Sequence record: NC_070872.1
Direction: 5' to 3' (one strand)
Source: Escherichia phage U1G
DNA length: 64,000 bases
The notes under the pieces were generated by a model, which saw only the letters and a list, made by a program, of their open reading frames with translations, did not search any database and was not told the origin of the DNA. Numbering within the stretch: the first letter of the stretch is position 1; the number at the start of each line of letters is the position of its first letter. Below are positions 26,971-27,072 of this stretch, piece by piece. The position numbers and the translations under genes are program-made.

Positions 26971-27072
26971 ATTCAAAGTAGCATTGCAATAATCCATTCC
27001 GGAGTTCAAAGGCCAATCGTGGAGCAGTGCTACTTTGAATTAGAAGAATTAAGACGGGTCTGGTGAAGTAGA

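What the first reader, a model, noticed from the sequence alone, without database searches (positions are those of the whole stretch)
26972..27040. Long near-perfect 16-bp hairpin between tRNA-like elements B and C
TTCAAAGTAGCATTGC (26972..26987) pairs with GCAGTGCTACTTTGAA (27025..27040) with a single GU, enclosing a 37-nt loop. A stem this long is unusual for a terminator and could be an RNase III processing site, a small RNA, or a protein-binding structure.
Basis: seen in the sequence. Interest (0 to 1): 0.4.

Follow-up and report, generated by a model that had tools for sequence, protein, structure and literature searches.

The report
Orphan stalk helix of phage tRNA-like gene
The hairpin is real and conserved: it is the long closing helix that, in related N4-like phages, wraps a tRNA-like RNA inside the phage's tRNA gene cluster, but in this phage the tRNA-like core has been lost and only the helix remains.

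Summary
The hairpin exists, but it is 18 bp (26970-26987 with 27024-27041; 17 Watson-Crick pairs and 1 G.U; 36-nt loop). It is the only uninterrupted stem of at least 16 bp in the 64-kb window, and 20 shuffles gave none.

The window is a Gamaleyavirus, an N4-like phage closest to St11Ph5. The hairpin lies in the 1.3-kb noncoding tRNA island between gp47 and gp48.

All 24 related phages examined have the same two arms. They enclose interiors of 36 to 84 nt. The longest interiors are tRNA-like cloverleaves with a canonical T arm.

Phages N4 and G7C have, in the same slot, an AATT-bounded 18-bp helix of quite different sequence, continuous with a 7-bp acceptor stem around a tRNA-like core. That element also occurs in Klebsiella and Salmonella N4-like phages and in T4-like Yersinia phages. 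There, 15 of 34 pairs show compensatory changes.

So the feature is the leader/trailer stalk of an unannotated family of tRNA-like RNAs, here with a collapsed core. It is not a terminator and not coding.

A role as an RNase III or other processing stem in the polycistronic transcript is the most likely mechanism, but it is untested.

In passing: most relatives, but not this window, also carry a tmRNA-like tag reading frame in the island.

The parts
26970..26987 (+). 5' arm of the stalk helix (AATTCAAAGTAGCATTGC). Its first base is also the terminal A of element B's encoded CCA.
   Evidence: Positions 1-14 are identical in 24 of 26 distinct variants.
26988..27023 (+). 36-nt interior, read as the collapsed remnant of a tRNA-like core. 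It has a short inner stem (26993-26997 with 27019-27023) and a T-loop-like heptamer GTTCAAA (27004-27010) that lacks a T stem.
   Evidence: Fold. In relatives the interior is 36-40, 52 or 84 nt between the same arms. The 84-nt form folds as a cloverleaf with a T arm.
27024..27041 (+). 3' arm of the stalk helix (GCAGTGCTACTTTGAATT).
   Evidence: Pair counts.
27042..27052 (+). Conserved purine/AU-rich single-stranded spacer (AGAAGAATTAA) between the stalk and the next module.
   Evidence: RGAAGAATTAWG is conserved in most relatives, whatever module follows.
26847..26970 (+). Element B, a 124-nt tRNA-like module: 7-bp acceptor stem TACCAGT/ACTGGTA, a T-loop TTCGAAT, discriminator A and an encoded CCA. 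It directly abuts the stalk.
   Evidence: 96-99% identical across relatives. Not called a tRNA. Its fold is not better than shuffles.
26779..26844 (+). Element A, a 66-nt tRNA-like module: acceptor TCCGGTG/CGCCGGA, a T arm and ACCA. It is nearly identical in phage N4, where it directly precedes the N4 stalked element.
27053..27162 (+). Element C, a module with two T-loop-like motifs, downstream of the stalk. Many relatives lack it.
   Evidence: Weak tRNA-Sec hit (15.3 bits, E 8.7). Module map.
26591..26705 (+). I1, a second orphan stalk: 26-bp imperfect helix (26591-26616 with 26680-26705) and a 63-nt interior. In Klebsiella phage Pylas and Salmonella phage SP-076 the same stalk encloses the N4-type tRNA-like core and sits just upstream of a tmRNA-like tag.
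   Evidence: It is the best hit of model R1 in the island (26.8 bits, E 1.5e-5).
27471..27500 (+). Intrinsic terminator that closes the noncoding island on the + strand, just before gp48 (27549-27941).
   Evidence: Annotated as a terminator in G7C, PhAPEC5 and PhAPEC7.

Best explanation
The hairpin is an RNA helix on the + strand. It is the leader/trailer stalk of a tRNA-like gene module in the polycistronic tRNA island of N4-like phages.

In the complete form of the module (N4, G7C, Pylas, SP-076, Yersinia phage TG1), an 18-bp helix runs without a break into a 7-bp acceptor stem. Above it sits a tRNA-like core with U8/A9, a D-like region, a stem with a large loop and a canonical T arm. In this window the arms are kept, but the core has shrunk to 36 nt.

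Shown here: the helix is real, unique in the window and conserved, it carries compensatory changes, and it occupies the same array slot as the complete elements.

Inferred, not shown: the island is transcribed as one + strand RNA, the helix forms in that RNA, and it serves as a double-stranded processing or insulating stem. The most likely reading is an entry site for host RNase III, much as the stalks flanking rRNAs work. Cleavage there would separate the CCA-ending element B from the downstream modules and leave ends for exonucleases to trim back.
For: - Real and non-random.
- Conserved: 48 phage records match, and all 24 Gamaleyavirus loci mapped have it.
- Pairing kept: 92.9% of cells pair, against 20-43% when the partner is slid. 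Both-sided changes occur at stem positions 5, 6 and 15, and also at 17 (G-C to C-G) and 18 (C-G to U-A) when arms are anchored at their ends.
- Arm spacing varies from 36 to 84 nt. That fits an intramolecular hairpin, not a dimeric protein site on duplex DNA.
- The long interiors are tRNA-like, with a T arm that covaries (A-U to G-C).
- N4 and G7C have an AATT-bounded 18-bp helix of different sequence in the same slot: after a CCA-ending module or a CCAATT junction, and before the same kind of spacer (in G7C also element C). It encloses a tRNA-like core.
- In that family 15 of 34 pairs, nearly all in the stalk, keep pairing through both-sided changes.
- A covariance model of the family picks I1 and this hairpin as its two best + strand hits in the island.
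- Strand: the T loops, the CCA ends, the flanking ORFs and the terminator are all on +.
- Not coding: no PHROG hit for the overlapping ORFs, and the length classes (72, 75, 86, 118, 120 nt) are not frame-preserving.
Against: - No transcript or processing data were available, so RNase III involvement is pure inference.
- 18 bp is at the low end for natural RNase III substrates.
- Wobble statistics do not pick a strand: on + there are 23 G.U and 37 mismatch cells, on - 33 and 27.
- The 5' arm is almost invariant while the 3' arm drifts into A.C mismatches. Some phages (PD205, VTCC322, PhAPEC7) carry hybrid arms with two or more mismatches. Sequence-level constraint or recombination, not only pairing, therefore shapes the arms.
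- The covariance-model hit on the window hairpin is weak (16.6 bits), uses the helix only and is nearly as good on the - strand.
- The model does not recognise the 84-nt core (13.9 bits), so the link between window-type arms and the N4-type element rests on position and architecture.
Confidence: 0.6

Rival explanations
1. Vestige: the hairpin is a decaying relic of a stalked tRNA-like gene and has no function of its own in this phage. The arms look conserved only because the loss is recent and neighbouring modules recombine often.
For: - The core is gone (36-nt loop), and this window has also lost several other modules relative to St11Ph5.
- Hybrid arm combinations with mismatches exist.
- Most changes in the 3' arm are uncompensated A.C mismatches.
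Against: - Short forms make up 18 of the 26 distinct variants. They fall into three diverged interior classes, yet all keep the helix, with compensatory changes specific to the short classes (G-C to C-G in the ST4 class, C-G to U-A in the Mimir124 class).
- The arms are much more conserved than the interior.
- The element is present in all 24 loci mapped, while most other modules come and go.
Confidence: 0.2
2. DNA-level element: the arms are the boundaries of a cassette-exchange or homing site, or a hairpin that forms in single-stranded DNA during N4-type replication or transcription. They would be conserved as a recombination or protein-recognition sequence rather than as an RNA helix.
For: - The island is a mosaic whose modules are swapped at CCAATT junctions.
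- Different cargos sit between identical arms.
- HNH homing endonuclease genes lie in the island in ZQ2 and G7C.
- The 5' arm is invariant at sequence level.
- Wobble counts do not favour the + strand.
Against: - N4, G7C, Pylas and TG1 keep helix length and pairing with unrelated arm sequences. That is the signature of structural rather than sequence selection.
- The helix is continuous with an acceptor stem of a tRNA-like fold, which only makes sense in RNA.
- No endonuclease gene lies in this window's island.
- From my own knowledge: N4 virion RNA polymerase promoters are 5-7 bp hairpins with 3-nt loops, unlike this one.
Confidence: 0.12
3. Stand-alone small RNA or protein-binding hairpin: the roughly 72-nt hairpin is released (for example by RNase E at the flanking AAUU motifs) and acts on its own as a decoy or ligand for a host or phage protein, with the conserved GUAGCA/UGCUAC centre as the recognition site.
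For: - Nine stem pairs never vary.
- The loop motif YCCCGG-NR-TTYAAAG is conserved in all three short classes.
- AU-rich AAUU motifs flank both sides.
Against: - No partner is known.
- The N4-type elements have unrelated stem sequences.
- The arm sequence has no other copy in the window beyond chance, and the element has no match in E. coli genomes.
Confidence: 0.08

Closest known systems
Phage T4 stable RNAs species 1 and 2 (rnaC, rnaD) in the T4 tRNA cluster
   Same: - Small non-tRNA RNAs encoded head-to-tail with tRNAs in a phage tRNA cluster.
- They are separated from the preceding CCA end by a few AU-rich bases (T4: CACCA-AAUUA; here ACCA-AUU).
- rnaC has a tRNA-like 3' domain with a 7-bp acceptor stem and a T arm, and it lacks an encoded CCA.
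- Their function is still unknown (own knowledge).
- A T4-like phage, Yersinia TG1, carries the N4-type stalked element in its tRNA region.
   Different: - No significant similarity: rnaC is the best model hit in the T4 region, but at only 12 bits, E 0.18.
- T4 rnaC has a 5' extension rather than a fully paired 18-bp leader/trailer stalk.
RNase III processing stalks that flank rRNAs, and phage T7/lambda RNase III sites (own knowledge)
   Same: A long, nearly perfect helix formed by sequences on either side of a structured RNA within a polycistronic transcript, often with a conserved helix defect.
   Different: - Cleavage has not been shown here.
- The helix is 18 bp (25 bp with the acceptor stem in the complete forms).
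- In this window it flanks only a 36-nt remnant.
Bacterial Y RNA-like RNA YrlA (Rfam RF02553)
   Same: A long stem formed by the 5' and 3' regions plus a tRNA-like module with a T arm. Some Y RNA-like genes are phage-borne (own knowledge).
   Different: - No Rfam hit at the hairpin.
- In YrlA the long stem takes the place of the anticodon stem. Here it extends the acceptor stem, and the order is D region, hairpin, T arm.
- No Ro (Rsr) partner is known in this phage or its usual host.
Two-piece (permuted) tmRNA
   Same: Relatives carry, in the same island, a 10-codon tag frame and a downstream pseudoknot-like region. These match Rfam tmRNA_permuted and beta_tmRNA below threshold. In Pylas and SP-076 the tag lies directly 3' of a stalked tRNA-like element.
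   Different: - The window has no tag.
- The stalk extends the acceptor stem rather than forming helix P2.
- No G3.U70 acceptor stem was found.
- ARAGORN finds no tmRNA.

Membership tests
Canonical tRNA gene | Cloverleaf with D, anticodon and T arms, recognised by ARAGORN or Rfam RF00005 | tested here: not met
   No tRNA anywhere in the window and none at the hairpin at E up to 10. The interior is only 36 nt.
Intrinsic (rho-independent) terminator | G+C-rich stem with a short loop, followed by a U tract | tested here: not met
   The loop is 36 nt and the stem is AT-rich. The 3' flank is AGAAGAATTAAG. The hairpin is not listed by the terminator scan, which finds the real terminator at 27471-27500.
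Stalked tRNA-like element of N4-like and T4-like phages (model R1, defined here) | Long leader/trailer helix (about 18 bp, AATT-bounded in Enquatrovirinae) with conserved pairing | tested here: met
   18 bp at 26970-27041. Pairing statistics. It is the second-best + strand hit of R1 in the island (16.6 bits, E 0.0045), helix columns only.
Stalked tRNA-like element of N4-like and T4-like phages (model R1, defined here) | tRNA-like core: 7-bp acceptor stem continuous with the stalk, U8/A9, a D-like region, a stem with a large loop, and a T arm | tested here: not met
   The core columns are deleted (36 nt against 71 model positions). Only a GTTCAAA T-loop-like remnant is left. Cores are present between the same arms in F22, PD205, Bas96, E20, VTCC322 and IMG/VR locus L154 and in N4 and G7C.
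Stalked tRNA-like element of N4-like and T4-like phages (model R1, defined here) | Position: follows a CCA-ending module or a CCAATT junction in the gp47-gp48 island, and is followed by a purine/AU-rich spacer | tested here: met
   Window: B-ACCA|ATT...AATT|AGAAGAATTAAG|C. G7C: CCAATT...AATT|GGAAAAATTAAG|C. N4: A-ACCAATT...AATT|GAAGATTTA|tRNA-Pro.
RNase III substrate | Cleavage by RNase III in a helix of about two turns | not testable with these tools
   The helix is 18 bp here, and 25 bp with the acceptor stem in the complete relatives. No cleavage data were available.
YrlA / Y RNA-like (RF02553) | Match to the Rfam model, with the Ro-binding stem replacing the anticodon stem of a tRNA-like domain | tested here: not met
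   No hit in the window. The weak hits in N4 (17-19 bits against a threshold of 69) fall on junctions between adjacent tRNA-type modules. The topology differs.
tmRNA (standard or permuted) | Tag reading frame plus a tRNA-like domain with an alanine-identity acceptor stem | tested here: not met
   No tag in the window. Relatives have the tag, but no G3.U70 acceptor stem, and ARAGORN detects no tmRNA.

The most novel reading that the evidence does not exclude
The two orphan stalks of this window (I1 and the hairpin) would be remnants of an undescribed multi-part RNA system of N4-like phages: stalked tRNA-like RNAs that work together with the tmRNA-like tag module found in most relatives. In effect, this would be a phage-encoded, unconventional trans-translation or ribosome-rescue-hijacking RNA whose pieces are cut out of one transcript at the stalks. 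The window phage would be a natural tag-less, core-less variant.
Probability: 0.15. Interest if true: 0.85.

Novelty: new variant of a known kind. Interest (0 to 1): 0.55.

Why it matters
Phage N4 is a classic model, yet its 1.5-kb gp47-gp48 gap and the matching regions of its relatives carry no annotation for these elements.

This work shows that the gap holds more than a few tRNA genes:
- a conserved family of tRNA-like RNAs enclosed in long stalks, shared with Klebsiella and Salmonella N4-like phages and with T4-like Yersinia phages;
- in many genomes, a tmRNA-like tag frame as well.

If the stalks are processing sites, they explain how a dense array of tRNA-type RNAs is cut into units. If the tRNA-like cores and the tag act together, phages may be manipulating ribosome rescue or tRNA-targeting defences in an undescribed way.

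For this particular window the finding is more modest: a conserved structural remnant whose function still has to be tested.

Tried and rejected
- **tRNA, tmRNA or any Rfam family at the hairpin:** none.
- **Terminator:** rejected, no U tract.
- **Protein-coding:** three overlapping ORFs have no PHROG match, and the length variants are not frame-preserving.
- **Host origin:** no match in 5,426 E. coli genomes.
- **Trans-acting arm sequence:** no extra copies in the window beyond chance.
- **IMG/VR scan with the 14-mer of the 5' arm:** only chance hits. Gapped patterns recovered a few true relatives.
- **Strict core pattern in bacterial genomes and JGI metagenomes:** no hits.
- **Strand assignment from wobble pairs:** inconclusive.
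- **Covariance model R1 as a homology test for the 84-nt cores:** not significant.
- **R1 against T4 rnaC:** not significant.
- **Literature:** no paper describing these elements in N4-like phages. The tmRNA mentions I opened (Pylas, KP8) were only ARAGORN citations. The tmRNA database paper reports 79 phage tmRNA sequences, but the supplementary files held name no phages.
- **Reading the stalk as tmRNA helix P2:** rejected. The order D region, hairpin, T arm makes the stalk an extension of the acceptor stem.

Full report
**Observation.** The inverted repeat is in the sequence. The 3' arm is at 27024-27039, one base lower than stated, and the loop is 36 nt. Two further A-T pairs extend the helix to 18 bp: 26970-26987 with 27024-27041, 17 Watson-Crick pairs and one U.G.

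RNAfold gives -29.8 kcal/mol for 26960-27050, with z = -5.25 against 200 shuffles, none of which fold as well. My own scan of all 64 kb for uninterrupted stems of at least 16 bp (at most one G.U, loop 3-80) returns only this one. Twenty dinucleotide-preserving shuffles gave none.

**Context.** The window is a Gamaleyavirus (N4-like, Schitoviridae), 96.5% identical over this region to phage St11Ph5. The hairpin lies in a noncoding stretch of about 1.3 kb between the gp47-like ORFs and gp48 (27549-27941). The giant virion RNA polymerase gene lies just beyond on the other strand.

ARAGORN and Rfam find nothing in the window at their thresholds. The stretch is nevertheless full of tRNA-type pieces on the + strand:
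- Element A (26779-26844) has a 7-bp acceptor stem, a T arm and ACCA.
- Element B (26847-26970) has the same features plus a large insertion.
- Element C (27053-27162) has two T-loop motifs.
- A strong terminator sits at 27471-27500.

Modules meet at a recurrent ACCA-ATT junction. The last A of B's CCA is the first base of the hairpin. Relatives annotate assorted tRNAs (Ala-CGC, Cys-ACA, Ile-AAU, 'OTHER') in the same island.

**Conservation.** The hairpin region matches 48 phage records. I fetched 23 Gamaleyavirus loci, and every one has the two arms. Other modules, including A, C and the real tRNA-Ile, come and go.

There are 26 distinct variants. In an alignment of them, 92.9% of cells in a 17-pair stem are standard pairs, against 20-43% when the 3' partner is slid by 1-3 columns. 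Both-sided compensatory changes occur at these stem positions:
- 5 and 6: C-G/A-U becomes A-U/G-C in E20 and PhAPEC5.
- 15: U.G, C-G or U-A.
- 17: G-C becomes C-G in the ST4 class.
- 18: C-G, U-A or G.U (these two seen when arms are anchored at their ends).

The picture is not pure structural selection:
- The 5' arm is almost invariant.
- The 3' arm often carries an A.C mismatch at position 7 (16 of 26, plus one A.A), so the perfect stem of this window is the minority state.
- PD205, VTCC322 and PhAPEC7 have hybrid arms with two or more mismatches.
- Wobble counts do not discriminate the strands.

**What the arms enclose.** Between identical arms the interior is 36-40 nt in three diverged short classes that share YCCCGG-NR-TTYAAAG. 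It is 52 nt in PhAPEC5/7, and 84 nt in F22, Bas96, E20, PD205, VTCC322 and an IMG/VR contig.

The 84-nt form folds, alone and as an alignment, into a cloverleaf:
- a 5-bp acceptor-like stem stacked on the long helix;
- a D-like hairpin with GG;
- a short variable hairpin;
- a canonical T arm (GTGAGG-TTCGAGT-CCTCAC, with an A-U to G-C compensatory pair);
- one extra hairpin.

Variable spacing of 36 to 84 nt between constant arms fits an intramolecular hairpin. It does not fit a dimeric protein site on duplex DNA.

**The decisive comparison.** Phage N4 itself has an unannotated 1.5-kb gp47-gp48 gap. It holds four real tRNAs, a near-identical element A, and directly after A's ACCA-ATT a 111-nt element. 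That element has arms AATTCGTAAGAACTCTTA / TAAGAGTTCTTTCGAATT, which form an 18-bp helix with one U.U at position 7. The helix runs on into a 7-bp acceptor stem. Above it come U8-A9, a D-like region, a 6-bp stem with a 13-15-nt loop, and the T arm TTAGG-TTCGAAT-CCTAA.

G7C, the type Gamaleyavirus, has the same kind of element in exactly the slot of the window's hairpin, followed by the same spacer and element C.

The core also occurs elsewhere:
- In Klebsiella phages Pylas and KpCHEMY26 and Salmonella phages SP-076 and SP-058 (Humphriesvirinae), it sits inside a stalk whose sequence is that of the window's other long inverted repeat, I1 (26591-26705).
- In the T4-like Yersinia phages TG1 and phiR1-RT, it lies between tRNA genes.

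RNAalifold on eight members gives a 25-bp helix with two conserved defects, a stem-loop and the T arm. Of 34 pairs, 15 keep pairing through changes on both sides, nearly all of them in the stalk.

A covariance model of this family (R1), run without filters on the island, ranks I1 first (26.8 bits, E 1.5e-5) and the hairpin second (16.6 bits, E 0.0045) among + strand hits. Both match through helix columns only, with the core deleted.

Two limits apply. R1 does not recognise the 84-nt cores. So the link between window-type arms and the N4-type element rests on array position, helix length, the AATT ends, the position-7 defect and general tRNA-like architecture. It does not rest on significant core similarity.

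**Interpretation.** The feature is the leader/trailer stalk of a tRNA-like gene module whose core has collapsed in this phage. The window also lacks several other modules that St11Ph5 has.

Evidence for the + strand is indirect: T loops, CCA ends, flanking ORFs and the terminator all read on +.

The most likely mechanism is that the helix forms in a polycistronic transcript and serves as a double-stranded processing or insulating stem. By analogy with rRNA stalks, host RNase III would cut it and separate B from the downstream modules. This last step is inference only.

The short forms are probably not mere relics. They are the majority, they fall into three diverged classes, and they still keep the helix with class-specific compensations. 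The relic reading, a DNA-level recombination or cassette boundary, and a stand-alone small RNA cannot be excluded, and I list them as rivals.

**Excluded.**
- Terminator: no U tract.
- Coding: no PHROG hits, and the length classes are not frame-preserving.
- Known RNA families.
- Host-derived sequence.

**Comparison with known systems.**
- **T4 rnaC/rnaD.** These are the closest analogue. They are stable non-tRNA RNAs in a phage tRNA cluster, joined to neighbours by similar CCA-AAUU junctions, and rnaC has a tRNA-like 3' domain. Similarity is not significant.
- **YrlA-type Y RNAs.** They share the idea of a long stem plus a tRNA-like module, but the topology differs and Rfam does not match.
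- **tmRNA.** It is relevant only through the neighbours, as described below.

No paper or record found here annotates these elements. The matching stretches are 'none' or hypothetical ORFs in nearly every GenBank record listed. A few records place a tRNA-Undet or tRNA-OTHER call nearby, and the literature searches found nothing.

**Seen in passing.** Most Gamaleyavirus relatives and the Humphriesvirinae phages carry a tmRNA-like module directly 3' of the I1 stalk. It is a 10-codon frame GCA AAC GAU ... reading ANDDVVLMAA, ANDDVILMAA or ANEEAYLMVA. Substitutions in the final Ala-Ala codons are synonymous among the ANDDV(V/I)LMAA variants, and one or two stop codons follow. For comparison, the E. 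coli tag is ANDENYALAA (own knowledge).

This frame, its upstream region and a downstream pseudoknot-like region match Rfam tmRNA_permuted (31-39 bits; threshold 47) and beta_tmRNA below threshold. I found no acceptor stem with alanine identity, and ARAGORN reports no tmRNA, so how the tag is used is unexplained. The window has lost this module.

**Verdict.** The finding is a real, conserved and previously unannotated structural element: a new variant of a known kind (tRNA-cluster stable RNA or processing stem), here in a degenerate form. Its interest lies mainly in the family and the neighbouring tmRNA-like module that it led to.

Noticed in passing
L001 (St11Ph5) 1930-1965; L017 (F22) 1277-1312; L158 (Pylas) 1350-1385. 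Absent from the window (junction at 26703-26713).: A tmRNA-like tag reading frame of 10 codons (ANDDVVLMAA, ANDDVILMAA or ANEEAYLMVA) followed by one or two stop codons, with synonymous changes in the Ala-Ala codons. It and a downstream pseudoknot-like region match Rfam tmRNA_permuted and beta_tmRNA below threshold in most Gamaleyavirus and in Humphriesvirinae phages. ARAGORN does not call it, none of the records I fetched annotates it, and no G3.U70 acceptor stem was found.
   Followed up: partly
window 26591-26705: A second long hairpin, I1: 26-bp imperfect stem with a 63-nt interior. Its arms are nearly identical to the stalk that in Pylas and SP-076 encloses the N4-type tRNA-like core just upstream of the tag. 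N4 has a helix of different sequence at the same place. It is the best hit of model R1 in the island.
   Followed up: partly
L156 (phage N4) 514-2032: Phage N4 has a 1.5-kb gp47-gp48 gap with no annotation in its RefSeq record. It contains four canonical tRNAs (Asn, Ser, Thr, Pro), element A, an I1-like hairpin and a complete stalked tRNA-like element (1335-1445).
   Followed up: partly
window 26779-26844 (A) and 26847-26970 (B): Two tRNA-like modules with 7-bp acceptor stems, T loops, discriminator A and an encoded CCA, but no normal D or anticodon arms. A is nearly identical in N4 and falls under tRNA-OTHER (KP8) and possibly tRNA-Undet calls in a few records. B is 96-99% identical across all relatives, the most conserved module of the island.
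   Followed up: partly
Stalk position 7: window 26976/27035; L156 1341/1439; L158 about 1199/1295: A helix defect at the same distance from the tRNA-like core is conserved across genera: U.U in N4 and the Pylas group, A.C in most Gamaleyavirus variants. This window is an exception, with A-U. It may be a recognition or cleavage determinant.
   Followed up: no
L160 (Yersinia phage TG1) 1476-1586: The N4-type stalked tRNA-like element occurs in T4-like myoviruses (TG1, phiR1-RT), between tRNA-Met and tRNA-Arg. This implies exchange of the element between unrelated phage families.
   Followed up: partly
window 26579, 26703-26713, 27159-27168, 27361-27366, 27442-27447 and 27502-27520, compared with L001, L003 and L017: Relative to St11Ph5, Bp4 and F22, the window shows clean module-sized deletions: a 72-nt tRNA-Ala(CGC)-like element, the 272-nt tag region, a 115-nt and a 120-nt module, tRNA-Ile(AAU), and a roughly 400-nt ORF-bearing segment. 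It has the most reduced island among the phages compared.
   Followed up: partly
L007 (ZQ2) 319-816; L157 (G7C) 402-899: HNH homing endonuclease genes sit at the upstream edge of the island in some relatives, which fits the mosaic turnover of modules. There is none in the window.
   Followed up: no
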